Assembly (NCBI GenBank): GCA_963666735.1
Contig: OY762926.1
Coordinates: 2,592,001 to 2,656,000, forward strand
DNA length: 64,000 bases
Reading direction: 5' to 3'
From: Gemmatimonadota bacterium
Lineage (GTDB): Bacteria; Gemmatimonadota; Gemmatimonadetes; Palauibacterales; Palauibacteraceae
Below, piece after piece: positions 18,001 to 27,000 of the stretch (within the stretch, counting starts at the first letter, position 1; each line of letters begins with the position of its first letter). A program made the position numbers.

Positions 18001-21000
18001 TCTTCGACCACGAGGTGCGCCGATACCTGGACTTCCTGCGGCGGGCTGCGGGAGTGATCGACCTCGGCGACGCCGCGAACCTCGACGGGGTGCTGCGATC
18101 TCTCGAAGACCGGCTCGCCGGCAAGGCGCCGGGGGACATCGATCCCGATGTGGTTCAACAACTCAAGCGGATCATCCGCGAGACCGAGGCCACGGCCGCG
18201 ATCGAAACGCTTGGGATGTCCGCCGGGAGTGCCCGCTTCCTGAACCAGCCGTTCTATCGGACGGGAGCGGTGAGAAAGAACCCGATCACGGCGGCGGACG
18301 TGGAGATCGTCACGCGCTTGCTGGAGGAGATGCGGCCATCGATCGTGTTCGCGGCCGGGGACCTGTCCGATCCGCACGGCACGCACCGCATGTGCCTCGA
18401 GACGATCGAGGCGGCGCTCGCCCGCTACCGCGGCGACCCGCCGTGGCTGTGGCTTTACCGCGGCGCGTGGCAGGAGTGGAATCTGGACGAAGCGACCGTG
18501 CTCGTACCGCTCTCCGAAAGCGAACTTCGCGGCAAGGTCCAGGCGATCTTCCGACACGAATCGCAGAAGGATTCGGCCCCCTTTCCCGGACCGGATCCGC
18601 GCGAATTCTGGCAGCGCGTCGTCGAGCGAAACCGGGATACCGCCGACCGGCTGGCGGCCCTGGGCCTGCCGGCGTACTACGCCATGGAGGCGTACGTGAC
18701 GCTGCGGGATGGACGGCGCGTCGAGGGTCCGGAGATCCCCACCTCCTCCCTCGCGGACACAGCGGACACAGACGCGTGAATCCGTGACGCACCCGGTCGG
18801 ACGCGGCGGCGTGACGGGCTGACATGGGCGAGTTTTTCGGGACGACCCGGGTGCCGTTCGATCTCTTCGGTCCGGTGCATCTGGTATCGATCGGCGCCGT
18901 GGCGGTGGTCGGCGTCTGTCTGATTCGCGCCGGGCTGGCGGCCGATGAGCGGGGTCGCCGCCGCCTCCGCGCGGCGCTGGGCCTCACGATCTTCCTCTTC
19001 CTCCTTTCGAGGCACCTCTGGAAGGCCGGGACGGGGCTCTGGGCGGTGCAGACCGACCTGCCGTTGCACCTCTGCAGCGCCATGGCGTGGGTGACCATTT
19101 TCGGGCTGTGGACGCGGCATCCCCGGGCTCTCCGCCTCATGTACTTCCTGGGCGTGGCGGGGGCGGTGCAAGCTCTCCTGACCCCGGATGGCGAGTTCGG
19201 CGTCGTGCACTTCTCCTTCTTCGAGTCGCTGGGATCGCACGGGGCGGTCGTCATCGCCGGCGTCTGGGCGGTGATCGTGGAGGGCTATCGGCCCACGGCG
19301 CGCGATCCGTGGATCGCCTTCGGACTCCTGAACCTGTACGCGGCCGTGGTCTTTCCGCTGAACCGGCTCCTCGGGTCGAACTTTCTCTACCTGATCGAGA
19401 AACCGGCGGGTCCCACGATCCTCGATTTCTTTCCGGGCTGGCCATGGTACATTCTGCTCATTGAACCCCTGGCGATCGGGCTCTTCCTGTCGCTGCGGCT
19501 TCCTTTTCGGAACCCCGCGGCCGACTGACGGTATCAAGTTTCTTCCCGCACGAAGAACCTGCACGAGGAATCTGCACGAAGAACCCCCATATGGAGGATG
19601 GACGGCATGCCGGAATGTCCTGTATGCGGCGCGGAACTGACAATCTCCGACGACCCCGTCGAAGGTGAACTCCTCGAATGCGAGGAGTGCGGCGTCGAAC
19701 TGGAGATCCTCGCCCTCGACCCCGTCACCCTCGGTGAGGCGCCGGACGCGGAGGAGGACTGGGGCGAATGAGAGTCGGCTTGCTTCATTCCCTCATCCGC
19801 AAGGACGAGAAGCTACTGATCGCGGAGTTGCGCGGGCGCGGCGATATCGAACTCGTGTTTCTGGACGACCGCAAACTCGCGTTCGACTTCCGGAACGTCC
19901 CGGACGTCGATGTCGTGCTCGAGCGCAGCATCAACCATTCGCGGGCGATGCACGCGCTGCGGCTGTTCCAGGGAGCCGGCCTCGACTGCGTGAACCGGTA
20001 CGAGGTGTCGCGCCGCTGCGGCGACAAGATCCTCACGGCGGCATCGCTCCGGGAACGCGGCGTGCCGCAACCCGACGCCAGAGTCGCCTTCACCGAGGAA
20101 TCCGCGCTCGAGGTCATTGAGGAACTGGGTTATCCCGTGGTCCTCAAGCCCGCGGTCGGCTCCTGGGGCCGGCTCCTGTCGAGGATCAACGACCGGCACG
20201 CGGCGGAGACGGTCCTCGAACACAAGGCGATCCTGGGCAGCTATCACCACTCGATCTTCTTCGTGCAGAAGTACGTGGAGAAGGGCGGGCGCGACATCCG
20301 CGCGTTCGTCGTGGGCGAGGACTGCGTGGCGGCCATCTACCGGTCGGCCGAGCACTGGATCACGAACACGGCCCGCGGCGGAAGCGCCTCGAACTGTCCG
20401 GTGACGAGCGAGATCGGGGAACTGTCGCTGCGCGCGGCGGACGCGGTGGGCGGGGGCGTGGTGGCCGTAGATCTGTTCGAGAGCGAGGGCGGACTGCTCG
20501 TGAACGAAGTGAACTACACGATGGAGTTCAGAAACAGCGTCGAGGCGACGGGCGTGAACATTCCGGAGAGGATCGTGTCGTACGTGCTCTCGCCGGACCG
20601 TCTCCCGGACCGTCTCCCGGACTCATGATCCGCGCGTCGATCGCGGGCGGATCCGGTTACGCGGGCGGGGAACTGCTGAGGCTCCTGCTCGGCCATCCCG
20701 ACGTCGAGGTGCGGCAGATCACGTCGGAGCGCTTCGCCGGACGGTTCGCGCACCGGGTCCACCCCAACCTGCGCGGCGTCACGCGACTGCGCTTCTGCGC
20801 GCTCGATGAGCTGGCCGGGTGCGATGTGCTCTTCCTCTGCCTGCCACACGGGGAATCGTCCCGCCGCATCGACGAGTTTCGGTCCGTGGCGGGACGGATC
20901 GTCGATCTGGGGGCGGATTTCCGGCTCCCGGACGGCGCGGAGTATGAGCGCTTCCACGGCAGGCCGCACCCGCGGCCGGAGCTCCTGAGATCCTTCGTAT

Positions 21001-24000: not shown

Positions 24001-27000
24001 CTGGCCGCAATCCGCTTCATGCGGGCCGAGCGGCTCGACGAGCGGGCCGAGGCGCTGGGCGCCCGCTTCAGCGAGCGGTTCGCCCGACAGCGGCCGGCCC
24101 GCGTGCGCGCCGTGCGGCAGGTCGGCCTCATGATCGGCGTCGAACTCCGCGAGCGCTGCCGCCCGTACCTCGAAGCCCTGGCGGACCGGAGCATCCTCGC
24201 CCTTCCCGCCGGCGCCACGGTCATCCGCCTGCTGCCGCCGCTCGTGATCACCGAAGCGCAGATCGATCAGGTGGCGGACACGCTCGCCCAAGTGCTGGAC
24301 GACTGACGCTCCGGGCGAACTCCGTCTTGCGGACTCCGTTCTGCGGACGCCCTTATCCGGACTCCGTTATCCGGACTCGGTTATTCGGCCGGTGTCAGAC
24401 GGACGGTCGCCGAGACGCGGCCGTCTCCTTCGGCGAACTCGACGGCAATGACGCCATCGCCGCGCTCCGAGACGAGAGCGGCGCCGCCGGTGACCGCAGA
24501 CACCACCGGGGTGCCGAAGAACTCGACCTCATAGGTGCGGCCCGCCGTCCCTTCCACGGAGAGATTCCAGCCATCCGCGTCGGCGATGAAGTCCAGAATC
24601 CGCAGGCCGCCGCTCGTCTCGCCGGGCTCGAGGTCGATGCGCGGCGGCGCGACCGCGAGTCCGCCTTCCCACGTCACGACGATCTCCGCGCGGCCGCCGG
24701 CCGGTGCCGCGTCTCCGACTGTGAGTTCGACGCTTCCGTCGTCCGTGAGTGCGGTCTCGACGCCGTTAACCCGGATGGACACTCTCTGCGCGCCCGCGGG
24801 CACATCGGGCACGAACTCGAACGTCAGAGCCGGCCCCGCGCTCGTGAGCGTCGTCCGCCGCTCTCCACCCTCCGTCGTCCATCGCTGCCGGACCTCCACA
24901 TCCGTTTCCGTTGCTCCGGCCCGAAGCCTCCGGACGGTTACCTCCGGCCAGTCCGGCGGAAGTTGCGGGGCGAGCCGAGCCCTGCCGCGCGGGGCATCGG
25001 GTTCCCAGCCGAACACGCCCCGCATGAGCGGTGTCACCAGAGCCGATGTCGCGAAGAACTGGTGCGGGACGGTCTGGTCGAGGGGTTCGTAGAACGTTCC
25101 CGACAGCAATTCCGGGTGTCGCCCCAGGCTCCAGTCGAACGTCATCTGCTTCACCGCATCCATGAGGTGGAAGCCCGCCCACGGACGCCGGTACCGGTAC
25201 TGGCCCCAGGCTACATACCCGGTCACGAAGGGCCACACGGTGCCCATGTTGTACTGGAGCGGGTGATACAACTCGCTCGCCGTGGAGAGCATGTGGGCGC
25301 CCCAGTCCGACGAGATTCGATCGCTCGCAAGGTGGGTGAGGGTCGATCGCGCGCGCGCCTCGTCGAACAGGCCGAACGCCGCCGCCGTGGCGGGCCACAC
25401 GGTCAGATTGTCGTTGGTGCCGCCATCGGCGAGGATCCCGAACGCATGGTGTCCCGCATCCTCCAGCCAGTACGCTTCGTTCAGCGTCGCGCGCGCCCGC
25501 GGAGCGAGCTCCCGCGCCCGATCCGCGATACCGGCGTCGCCCATGCGCTCGGCCAGGACACGGGTCCCCTCGAGCGCCGCGGCCCAGACGCCCGCCAGGT
25601 AGACATCCTGGTGCAGCGCGGCCCCGAGGCCGCCGACCTCGACCGCCGCGAGGCCACCCACGGTGTTTTCGATGATGCCGTCCCCGTCCGTCTCGGCGGT
25701 GAGGCACCACGCCCAGGCGCGCCGGTAGGCCGGCCACAGTTCCCCCAGCAGCTCGTCGTCGCCGCTCGCCCGCCAGTACTCGTAGAGGGCGACCATCCAG
25801 TAGGGCGTGGTGTCGGCGTGGTAGTAGGCGTACGGATACACGTCGAACCACGGGATGCGCGCGGCCGCCTGCGAGATCTCGTGCGTGATCTTGCCGTCCT
25901 CGCGCTGGTACTTCGCGAGAAAAGCGAGTTCCTCCGCCACCAGTTCCCACTGCCCGAGGGCCTCCATCGCGAACATGGTCTGCGCCGCGTCGCCGCCGAA
26001 GAACCAGCCGAACCCGGGGCGGGTTCCGTTGCGGGACAGGCCCCAGCCCGCGACGAACCCGCACCCGAGGTCGGGATTGCAGACGCGCTGCTCCTCCAGG
26101 TTGATCTTCGCCCACTCGAGGGCGAGGTCGAGCCACGGATCCGGCGATTCGATGGAAACGGTGGAGGCGAGCACCGAGTCGGCCCATGCCCGCTTCGCGT
26201 CGTAGAGGGAGCGGGCCTCCGAGATCAGCTGTTCGTAGCTGGCGAAGACTTCCTCGCGGGGCGCGGTTCCGCCCGCTACGGCAATCGGAATGAACTCCCG
26301 CCGCGCGCGCTCGGGGTCGACCGGGATCACCATGGTGCGTGGCGCTTCGCCCAGTTGATGGGCCGGGTGTTCCACGGAGTTCACGGCCCACGGCGAGCCG
26401 ACGACTGCGTTCGTCTCCTGCAGGCTCTCGGAGAGCACGAAGGCGCGCCGTCCGGCGTCCCAGTAGGCGTACTGTCCGCCGATCGAGCCCGGCCACATAT
26501 AGTTCAGCACGGGTTCGAACTCGGCAATGATCTCGAGCGGCTCCGGGCTGTCCACGTCGAGCAGGAGCAGAAGGCCGGGGAGTTCGGCCGGCGCGAGGAT
26601 GTGCTGGCGCACTTGGAAAGCGGCGTGGCTGTAAGTGATCGTCGTGAGTTCGGGCCGCACGTGCACGGTGCGCGCGACCTCGTTTCCCGGAATCGGCGTC
26701 CCGTAGGCCGACGTCGAGAAGCCGAGCCGGAAACGGTTCCCGACCTTGAGGGGATGGACCCACAGTTCCGCTTCGCCCGTTTCGAGCCCGAGCCATGCGG
26801 ACCGAGGCCCCGTCACGCCCAGATATTCGCCGGGACGCACGGGTCCGGTGAGTTCGATCGGCGAGGACGCGATCTCGAAGCGCGGGACTCCGGCCGCCTC
26901 CTGGCCGGCACCGTTCGCCGGCAGGCCGGCGGCCATCGCGGCGAGGAGGGCGAAGAGCCTGAGAAGCGAGACGCGCGGCGCATCATCCAGAGTCATCGTC

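What a model noticed while it worked through the whole genome (the two positions that open the first line are those of the whole stretch)
19607..24306. EgtC-like Ntn hydrolase replaces LysK in a LysW (amino-group carrier) operon
The operon lysW-lysX-lysY-[g02281]-lysZ-lysJ has no LysK. The unannotated 218-aa g02281 (2613675-2614331) is an Ntn hydrolase with an N-terminal Cys2 nucleophile and the fold of EgtC, a gamma-glutamyl-amide hydrolase. It is predicted to release the product from LysW's C-terminal Glu: a non-orthologous replacement of the M20 carboxypeptidase LysK, found in many phyla.
Evidence so far: 80 of 80 related loci (Gemmatimonadota, Acidobacteriota, Gammaproteobacteria, Desulfobacterota, Calditrichota, Zixibacteria, Bacteroidota, Chloroflexota, Methanosarcinales) have it next to lysY and/or lysZ, nearly all in the same order. 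None showed a hit to this genome's M20 peptidases. The LysK model TIGR01902 is under its cut-off here and in 22 of 22 of those genomes, but over it in 4 controls. Cys2, HARS and NNMPF are invariant in 17 sequences. Model pLDDT 87.5; top Foldseek hits are EgtC, TM about 0.76; the PDB sequence search gives EgtC. LysX is 52% identical to Thermus LysX vs 33% to ArgX. Paper searches for LysW with Ntn, glutamine amidotransferase or EgtC found no description.
(Added by a program. Inside this text positions count along the whole contig: contig position 2,592,001 is position 1 of the stretch shown here. "Call 12" and the like, gene names such as g00115 and contig names such as C1 are that model's own, and its searches are not shown. 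The text may have been shortened before it was handed on; [...] marks where a part breaks off. The agent that wrote the report below was given it as the finding of a first reader that could run no searches.)

Follow-up and report, generated by a model that had tools for sequence, protein, structure and literature searches.

The report
Cysteine amidase replaces LysK, frees carrier
A small cysteine amidase encoded inside LysW carrier-protein operons very probably cuts the finished amino acid (lysine, in some hosts ornithine) off the carrier in place of the usual metal enzyme LysK, and it may also switch on carriers that are encoded with a terminal glutamine instead of glutamate.

Summary
Confirmed: lysW-X-Y-[218-aa Ntn gene]-Z-J, no LysK. 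The scan reported this system before on four other genomes. New tests support it. (1) Mutual exclusion: LysK over cut-off in 0 of 50 Ntn genomes; 78 of 80 LysX-positive Chloroflexota have LysK and none the Ntn gene; of 30 LysX-positive Gemmatimonadota 28 have Ntn, the other 2 LysK; 0 of 271 LysX-negative ones have Ntn. (2) Four small genomes with the operon show no M20 peptidase. (3) The glutamine alpha-amino-binding Asp of class II amidotransferases is Gly119 here. (4) A complex model puts LysW's EDWGE tail at Cys2/Arg78/Gly119 (0.76 vs control 0.02). (5) New: LysW ends in Gln in 8 of 66 Ntn operons and 0 of 88 genes in LysK-type genomes; 28 of 29 Gln-LysW loci reaching lysJ carry Ntn, suggesting it also deamidates the carrier, as Dop does Pup. 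Exceptions: one decayed Gln-LysW/lysK fragment, one orphan. Product here (lysine or ornithine) is unsettled. No assay exists.

The parts
19607..19771 (+). lysW, 54-aa zinc-ribbon amino-group carrier, C-terminus EDWGE (Glu54 = attachment site)
   Evidence: PDB LysW hits
19768..20628 (+). lysX, ATP-grasp ligase with the aminoadipate-type signature F180-I190-T201-N256S257
   Evidence: motif table in PMC12998189
20625..21647 (+). lysY (ArgC-family reductase); the only ArgC-like gene found in the genome
21675..22331 (+). 218-aa class II glutamine-amidohydrolase-like (EgtC-fold) Ntn hydrolase; Cys2 nucleophile, Arg78, Asn104-Gly105, Gly119; proposed LysW-gamma-lysine/ornithine hydrolase and LysW-Gln deamidase
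22335..23147 (+). lysZ ([LysW]-aminoadipate kinase); the only ArgB-like kinase found in the genome
23152..24306 (+). lysJ, class III aminotransferase (LysJ/ArgD type)

Best explanation
The 218-aa protein is the terminal hydrolase of a LysW (amino-group carrier) pathway. [quoted passage not shown] Arg78 holds Glu54's free alpha-carboxylate as Arg73 does for glutamine in GlmS; the Asp that binds glutamine's free alpha-amino group is replaced by Gly119, making room for the Trp52-Gly53-Glu54 backbone. The same chemistry turns a genetically encoded Gln54 into Glu54, which would explain why Gln-ended LysW recurs in these operons. Shown here: gene content, co-occurrence, conserved residues, fold, predicted contact. 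Inferred: catalysis, residue roles (from GlmS), deamidation, the product. For this host lysine from aminoadipate is about 55%, both products 25%, mainly ornithine 20%.
For: Position and co-occurrence: 80 of 80 relatives beside lysY/lysZ; six divergent members (28-33% identity) sit after lysJ, where LysK sits in G387. Exclusion: LysK over cut-off in 0 of 50 Ntn genomes, best 99.4 bits; in 80 of 105 LysX-positive Chloroflexota tested, 78 have LysK over cut-off, the other two partial hits at contig ends, and none has the Ntn family (1 weak 52.6-bit hit that keeps the Asp); in 301 Gemmatimonadota 30 have LysX, 28 of them Ntn (best hit 221 bits or more), the other 2 LysK, and 0 of 271 LysX-negative genomes have Ntn above 42 bits. 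lysW found by DNA pattern alone: 17 of 17 informative Calditrichota loci (23 fetched, 6 end early) and 11 of 11 informative small-genome loci (13 fetched, 1 chance match, 1 ends early) carry Ntn, none LysK. 4 of 5 tested small genomes have no Peptidase_M20 hit at all, and 0 of 5 LysA over cut-off; five of the 11 loci encode homocitrate-synthase-like, LeuC/D-like and LeuB-like genes in the same operon. Active site: Cys2, Arg78, Asn104, Gly105, Gly119 invariant in 37 diverse sequences; Gly119 in 135 of 136 aligned 50%-cluster representatives, aligned to the Asp of YafJ 'ETDSE' (hhalign 97.85%) and GlmS 'ETDTE' (low-probability alignment); Arg73 and Asp123 are named as the substrate-recognition residues of GlmS in PMC9280312 (passage citing Isupov 1996). 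Complex model: score 0.76, best of 3 controls 0.02; the mark was reached by 116 of 157 solved complexes and 2 of 215 mismatched pairs (counts hold only roughly: own alignments, zinc along); runs agree in at least 70% of contacts, partner pLDDT at least 83; interface Ntn 2, 78-81, 103-114, 118-123 with LysW 49-54; the PDB entries holding LysW do not overlap those of the Ntn relatives. Gln-ended LysW: 8 of 66 in Ntn loci vs 0 of 88 genes in the Chloroflexota set (Fisher p 0.0009, not independent); of 119 Gln-ended lysW loci found without using Ntn, 30 carry Ntn and 28 of the 29 that reach lysJ do; E/Q changes 15 times on the Ntn tree, 6 forced by well-supported branches.
Against: No biochemical data. 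This host has five or more ArgE/DapE-like M20 peptidases at 25-31% identity, one of which could act. L177 (633 bases) shows a Gln-ended lysW followed by a broken lysX-like stretch and a 24-residue LysK-like piece at 79%; L106 is a Gln-ended lysW with no pathway gene in 18 kb; so Gln-LysW is not strictly confined to Ntn operons. G040 (one chromosome, 7 Mb) keeps Ntn-lysZ-lysJ but has no LysX hit. L161 ends 72 bases after lysJ without Ntn (uninformative). The genomes are related and many metagenome loci are near-copies, so counts overstate independence; the LysK control for the E/Q test is essentially one phylum plus two Gemmatimonadota. The GlmS alignment itself has low probability (1.2%), and EgtC's residue at position 119 was not seen. 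41 of 50 Ntn genomes have LysA over cut-off and only 1 of 50 has homocitrate synthase over the TIGR02146 cut-off, so why many hosts keep the operon is not explained.
Confidence: 0.88

Rival explanations
1. The protein is a plain glutaminase subunit that supplies ammonia (for example to a neighbour enzyme), and a distant M20 peptidase elsewhere releases the product.
For: Fold of class II glutamine amidotransferase domains (GlmS Z 22.6, PurF Z 21.8); M20 genes exist in most larger hosts.
Against: No step of the pathway needs free ammonia (LysJ is a PLP transaminase; established knowledge); the Asp that binds free glutamine's alpha-amine is lost; four small genomes show no M20 at all; strict exclusion with LysK.
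Confidence: 0.04
2. The protein is only a carrier-editing enzyme (deamidating Gln54 or clearing mis-loaded or stalled intermediates), and release is done by another hydrolase.
For: Gln-ended LysW co-occurs with it; the complex model shows tail binding, not which amide is cut.
Against: Most Ntn operons have Glu-ended LysW (58 of 66) yet keep the gene and lack LysK; an editor alone would not explain why LysK disappears, nor genomes without any M20.
Confidence: 0.05
3. In these operons LysX links the substrate to the alpha-carboxyl of the last residue (RimK-like), so Glu or Gln does not matter and the Ntn enzyme cuts an alpha-peptide bond; no deamidation is needed. This keeps the release role and changes only the linkage.
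For: LysX belongs to the RimK superfamily (TIGR00768 282.7 bits); E/Q flips often.
Against: LysX is closest to Thermus LysX, which uses the gamma-carboxyl; only E and Q, never another residue, end the 66 lysW genes found by protein similarity; Arg78 is the alpha-carboxylate binder of the fold.
Confidence: 0.08
4. On the product in this host: the operon mainly makes ornithine for arginine, not lysine.
For: Genome has argF, argG, argH over cut-off and carAB, but no argA, argJ or canonical argB, and its only ArgC-like gene is lysY; lysA, dapF, dapB are over cut-off; no clear homocitrate synthase (170 bits vs 413.55). L148 shows the Ntn gene in argH-argG-argF-W-X-Y-Z-J-Ntn. PMC11651109 (passage) assigns a LysW-glutamate ornithine route to host-associated Gemmatimonadota from annotation.
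Against: LysX has the F-I-T-NS motif of aminoadipate-specific enzymes, whose Glu conversion is at least 10-fold lower; 27 of 50 Ntn genomes have canonical ArgB as well; homocitrate-synthase-like genes lie inside many operons (21 of 23 Calditrichota loci); this host has proBA and an ornithine aminotransferase over cut-off as another possible ornithine source; a LeuA-family gene whose best PDB hit is a homocitrate synthase could supply aminoadipate.
Confidence: 0.2

Closest known systems
LysW/AmCP lysine and ornithine pathway of Thermus, Sulfolobus, Thermococcus, haloarchaea (LysW, X, Z, Y, J, K)
   Same: Carrier with four Cys and EDWGE, ATP-grasp ligase, kinase, reductase, transaminase, all family hits here (motif described in PMC10433800, passages).
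   Different: No M20 carboxypeptidase LysK/ArgE; an unrelated cysteine Ntn enzyme takes its place; the carrier may end in Gln.
EgtC, ergothioneine-biosynthetic Ntn amidohydrolase (PDB 4ZFJ/4ZFK/4ZFL; TIGR03442)
   Same: Best structural match (Z 25.9, rmsd 1.8, 199 residues); N-terminal Cys; removes a gamma-glutamyl protecting group from a biosynthetic intermediate (role recalled; entry titles name it an Ntn hydrolase with natural substrate).
   Different: About 21% identity, far under the family cut-off (49 vs 218.65 bits); no egt neighbours; proposed glutamyl donor is the C-terminus of a protein, not free glutamate.
Class II glutamine amidotransferase domains (GlmS, PurF, YafJ)
   Same: Fold and Cys1/Arg73/Asn98/Gly99 equivalents kept.
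   Different: Stand-alone in the 211-238-aa forms seen; Asp123 equivalent is Gly119; Thr76 equivalent is mostly Phe.
Pup/Dop of actinobacteria
   Same: Logic only: a small acidic protein conjugated through the gamma-carboxyl of its C-terminal Glu; some species encode Gln, and the enzyme that cuts the gamma-amide also deamidates (PMC8599861, passages).
   Different: Dop is a glutamine-synthetase-fold, nucleotide-dependent enzyme in protein degradation; no homology is claimed.

Membership tests
LysW/AmCP pathway | LysW carrier with Zn-ribbon and C-terminal EDWGE | tested here: met
LysW/AmCP pathway | LysX ligase, LysZ kinase, LysY reductase, LysJ transaminase | tested here: met
   TIGR02144 and NF010659 over cut-off; TIGR01850 and TIGR00707 over cut-off; the Thermus-specific LysJ model NF042418 is under its cut-off (477 vs 700)
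LysW/AmCP pathway | M20 hydrolase LysK/ArgE | tested here: not met
   TIGR01902 best 69.8 vs 163.1 in this genome; 0 of 50 relatives
LysW/AmCP pathway (lysine branch) | Aminoadipate supply (homocitrate synthase, homoaconitase, homoisocitrate dehydrogenase) in this genome | tested here: inconclusive
   only a divergent LeuA-family gene (170 bits; best PDB hit a homocitrate synthase) next to an NAD-IDH-like gene
LysK (peptidase M20) | M20 sequence family and fold | tested here: not met
   no M20 family hit for the 218-aa protein; fold is Ntn
Ntn hydrolase, class II glutamine-amidohydrolase-like | N-terminal Cys after Met, alpha-beta-beta-alpha fold, Arg and Asn-Gly active-site residues | tested here: met
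   M/V-C-R start in 77 of 78 loci (the other was a mis-extended start)
Class II glutamine amidotransferase (free glutamine substrate) | Asp binding the alpha-amino group of glutamine (GlmS Asp123, TD[ST]E motif) | tested here: not met
   Gly119 in 135 of 136 aligned representatives; Asp in YafJ and in the non-operon paralogue L216
EgtC | TIGR03442 cut-off | tested here: not met
   49 vs 218.65 bits
EgtC | Ergothioneine gene neighbourhood | tested here: not met
   neighbours are lysY and lysZ in 80 of 80 loci; no recurring egt-like cluster among the 70 largest neighbour clusters listed
EgtC / LysK | Measured hydrolysis of the gamma-glutamyl amide | not testable with these tools
   needs an assay
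Pup/Dop | Glutamine-synthetase-fold deamidase | tested here: not met
   fold is Ntn; analogy of logic only

The most novel reading that the evidence does not exclude
A second, cysteine-based way to finish carrier-protein lysine/ornithine synthesis, spread over many bacterial phyla and a small-genome lineage, in which one Ntn enzyme both releases the product and activates carriers encoded as an inactive Gln-ended precursor: a Pup/Dop-like priming step in primary amino-acid biosynthesis, reached by convergence.
Probability: 0.62. Interest if true: 0.86.

Novelty: new variant of a known kind. Interest (0 to 1): 0.78.

Why it matters
It closes a pathway hole: operons of at least eight phylum-level groups that look one enzyme short of lysine or arginine synthesis would be complete, which changes auxotrophy calls for sponge symbionts, Calditrichota and small-genome lineages. 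It adds a non-homologous isofunctional enzyme for a textbook step and a class II amidohydrolase whose substrate is a protein tail. It also shows that the 'invariant' EDWGE end of amino-group carriers can be EDWGQ, so genome mining for such carriers by EDWGE misses a class, and it gives a cheap two-protein assay.

Tried and rejected
Expression: two RNA runs hold only 5% of the words; their contigs (relatives, 85-99% alike) cover parts of every gene including the Ntn gene, but contigs cannot show transcription; not used. Promoter/terminator scan: 0 promoter-like sites, 5 terminator-like vs 2.2 +/- 1.7 by chance; nothing. Naming cultured carriers of the family through cluster members: 10 proteins, none named. 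Supplement of PMC5317091: one file held, no locus tags found, so whether the Ntn gene lies in the C. abyssi locus was not checked. Search for EgtC active-site numbering found no paper, so EgtC's residue at position 119 is unknown to me. One search was meant as a haloarchaeal LysK/ArgE control but drew a small-genome phylum instead; it became a third Ntn set, and a second LysK control phylum is missing. The careful tree did not finish; the quick tree was used. Fused or longer forms of the protein were not searched (one search covered 119-382 residues). The upstream TMEM164-family gene recurs in 27 of 80 loci, all Gemmatimonadota/Acidobacteriota, and is treated as a bystander. Literature searches that found no description of this enzyme or of EDWGQ; the library lacks most subscription journals, so absence from print is not shown.

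
Full report
Observation. The window holds six co-oriented genes, overlapping or a few bases apart: lysW (19607-19771), lysX (19768-20628), lysY (20625-21647), a 218-aa ORF (21675-22331), lysZ (22335-23147) and lysJ (23152-24306). Family scans name five of them as LysW-pathway genes; the 218-aa ORF has only sub-threshold hits to EgtC (49 vs 218.65 bits) and GATase_4. 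The LysK model TIGR01902 reaches 69.8 bits at best in the 3.98-Mb genome (94% complete; cut-off 163.1; 4 of 14 control genomes pass). The closest relatives are Candidatus Palauibacter records at about 90% identity. The scan's own notes hold four earlier reports of the same system on other genomes; these are unchecked AI notes and are not used as support.

The protein. It starts M/V-C-R in 77 of 78 complete loci. The model (pLDDT 91.7) matches EgtC best (Foldseek TM 0.76-0.79; VIA Z 25.9, rmsd 1.8 over 199 residues), then GlmS (Z 22.6) and PurF (Z 21.8) glutaminase domains. The family is sizeable: 3031 proteins at E<=0.001 among 90% clusters, 136 representatives at 50% identity with E<=1e-30. 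In 37 diverse members Cys2, Gln33, His76, Arg78, Asn104, Gly105, Gly116, Gly119 and Asn157 are invariant. Arg78 and Asn104-Gly105 align with GlmS Arg73 and Asn98-Gly99, while the Asp of the TD[ST]E motif (GlmS Asp123) aligns with Gly119 (YafJ alignment 97.85% probability; GlmS alignment only 1.2%). Gly119 is kept in 135 of 136 representatives that cover the site, whereas YafJ and a non-operon paralogue (L216) keep Asp. PMC9280312 (passages) names Arg73 and Asp123 as key substrate-recognition residues of GlmS, citing Isupov 1996; that Arg73 binds the alpha-carboxylate and Asp123 the alpha-amine is recalled. Keeping the first and losing the second is what a glutamyl donor with a free alpha-carboxylate and a peptide-blocked alpha-amine, the C-terminal Glu of LysW, requires (inference).

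Co-occurrence and exclusion. All 80 best relatives lie beside lysZ or lysY. In 50 of those 80 genomes LysK is never over cut-off (best 99.4). As a control I drew 301 Chloroflexota: 105 have LysX (two unpublished genomes count only in this tally). In 80 of the 105 tested, 78 have LysK over cut-off and two have partial hits at contig ends; none has the Ntn family. Within the host's phylum (301 genomes) 30 have LysX; 28 of these have the Ntn gene, and the other two (G387, G441) have LysK; none of the 271 LysX-negative genomes has a hit above 42 bits. Finding lysW by a DNA pattern alone gave 26 of 86 Calditrichota; of 23 newly fetched loci 17 reach past lysY and all 17 have the Ntn gene, 21 have a homocitrate-synthase-like gene after lysW. 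In a small-genome phylum drawn around G045, 14 of 401 genomes matched; of 13 fetched, one was a chance match, one ends early, and 11 of 11 have the Ntn gene, five with homocitrate-synthase-, LeuC/D- and LeuB-like genes in the same operon. Four of five such genomes tested show no Peptidase_M20 hit at all (controls 14 of 14) and none has LysA over cut-off (completeness not given). These counts are of related genomes and overstate independence. Exception: G040 keeps Ntn-lysZ-lysJ without a LysX hit.

Predicted contact. ESMFold2 on Ntn(2-218), zinc and LysW gave 0.76 against a best control of 0.02; that mark was reached by 116 of 157 solved complexes and 2 of 215 mismatched pairs, counts that hold only roughly here; runs agree in at least 70% of contacts, partner pLDDT at least 83. 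The interface joins Ntn residues 2, 78-81, 103-114, 118-123 and 149-151 with LysW 16-23 and the tail 49-54; Gly119 touches Asp51, Trp52 and Gly53. The PDB entries with LysW (3wwl, 3wwn, 5ein, 5eio, 5k2m, 3vpb) are not those of the Ntn relatives, so a remembered like complex is unlikely, though not excluded. The model supports binding; it does not show it.

A new clue: Gln-ended carriers. Of 66 complete lysW genes in the Ntn loci, 58 end in Glu and 8 in Gln. LysX needs the gamma-carboxyl of that residue (bioRxiv 10.1101/2021.12.28.474397, passages; EDWGE described as conserved in PMC10433800, passages). In the 80 Chloroflexota genomes all 88 matches end in Glu. Thirty carry the Ntn gene, including six divergent members placed after lysJ; of the 29 loci that reach lysJ, 28 have it and the last ends 72 bases after lysJ. 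Gln also ends 5 of 26 Calditrichota, 4 of 13 small-genome and 2 further Gemmatimonadota lysW genes. On a quick tree of 115 Ntn proteins the state changes 15 times, 6 forced by well-supported branches. Against: L177 pairs a Gln-ended lysW with a broken lysX-like stretch and a 24-residue LysK-like piece, and L106 is an orphan. A carboxypeptidase such as LysK cannot turn Gln into Glu, whereas a class II amidohydrolase does so by its basic chemistry (inference). Pup gives the precedent in logic: species encoding PupQ rely on the depupylase Dop to deamidate it (PMC8599861, passages).

Which product. The window's LysX has F-I-T-NS, the aminoadipate-type motif (PMC12998189, passages with Table 1), as do 61 of 69 sequences (8 F-V-T-NS); 27 of 50 Ntn genomes also have canonical ArgB, and homocitrate-synthase-like genes sit inside many operons, so lysine is the family's main product. 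Yet L148 places the gene in argH-argG-argF-W-X-Y-Z-J-Ntn with an F-M-T-GL ligase, and four small-genome operons have two ligases. This host has argF/G/H and carAB but no argA, argJ or canonical argB/argC, has lysA, dapF and dapB over cut-off (dapA under), and only a divergent LeuA-family gene as homocitrate-synthase candidate. It also has proBA and ornithine aminotransferase. 41 of 50 Ntn genomes have LysA. For this host I put lysine at 55%, both at 25%, ornithine at 20%.

Literature. Searches for LysW with EgtC, Ntn, class II amidotransferase, YafJ, deamidation or EDWGQ found no description; EDWGQ occurs in no held paper. PMC5317091 (passages) notes that Caldithrix abyssi has LysWXZYJ and Hcs in one locus, names no LysK there and calls the pathway in need of study; PMC11651109 (passage) assigns a LysW-glutamate route to host-associated Gemmatimonadota without naming the hydrolase; PMC3249071 and PMC13755311 (passages) do not bear on it. 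Most subscription journals and bioRxiv supplements are not held, so prior publication is not excluded.

Verdict. Works like LysK (release from LysW) by EgtC-like chemistry; it is a member of neither family. A new variant of a known pathway, well supported by comparative evidence and untested at the bench; the Gln-priming role is the most novel part and the less certain.

Noticed in passing
L036, L043, L046, L050, L051, L052, L069, L075; L091-L209; L273, L274; L286, L287, L289, L294, L303; L310-L313: lysW genes ending EDWGQ-stop instead of EDWGE-stop, almost always in Ntn operons.
   Followed up: yes
L148:1691-9929: Arginine operon argH-argG-argF-lysW(Gln)-X-Y-Z-J-Ntn with ligase motif F-M-T-GL; L101 and L173 also have argG or argF just upstream of a Gln-ended lysW.
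   Followed up: partly
L072 / G045, L306-L318: Record titled Methanosarcinales sits in a phylum of 0.5-2.1 Mb genomes; several of these small genomes encode a whole aminoadipate-lysine operon, four have two ligase paralogues with unusual motifs (F-V-I-QY, F-V-I-KF, L-V-R-AY, L-V-E-DY).
   Followed up: partly
L064 (G040): Ntn-lysZ-lysJ kept without lysW/X/Y nearby and no LysX hit in a 7-Mb chromosome; possible remnant or repurposed cluster.
   Followed up: partly
L106:9001-9033; L177: Orphan Gln-ended lysW in 18 kb without pathway genes; decayed lysW(Gln)-lysX-lysK fragment.
   Followed up: partly
G000:C1:1821643-1824490 (L256:6644-9887): Divergent LeuA-family gene without regulatory domain (best PDB hit a homocitrate synthase) next to an NAD-isocitrate-dehydrogenase-like gene; the genome also has an ordinary citrate synthase. 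Function unclear; hits of similar score occur in the related Gemmatimonadota tested.
   Followed up: partly
G000:C1:3651975-3658382 (L264): ilv/leu cluster with leuB, ilvD, ilvC and leuD, but no close leuA or leuC match in the genome by tblastn with E. coli proteins.
   Followed up: no
G115, G124, G160, G178, G195, G219, G235, G251, G267: Two or three tandem lysW copies in nine Chloroflexota genomes.
   Followed up: no
L131:8075-8749, L168, L161, L121, L133: A 225-aa gene with no NCBIfam hit lies divergently upstream of lysW in several operons; possible regulator.
   Followed up: no
window:18824-19528: TMEM164-family membrane protein directly upstream of lysW in 27 of 80 loci, with a glucosamine-6-phosphate deaminase-like and an M16 peptidase gene before it.
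   Followed up: no
G577, G579, G537, G480: Ntn proteins with a low-complexity insertion after residue 45 that splits the profile match in two within one frame.
   Followed up: no
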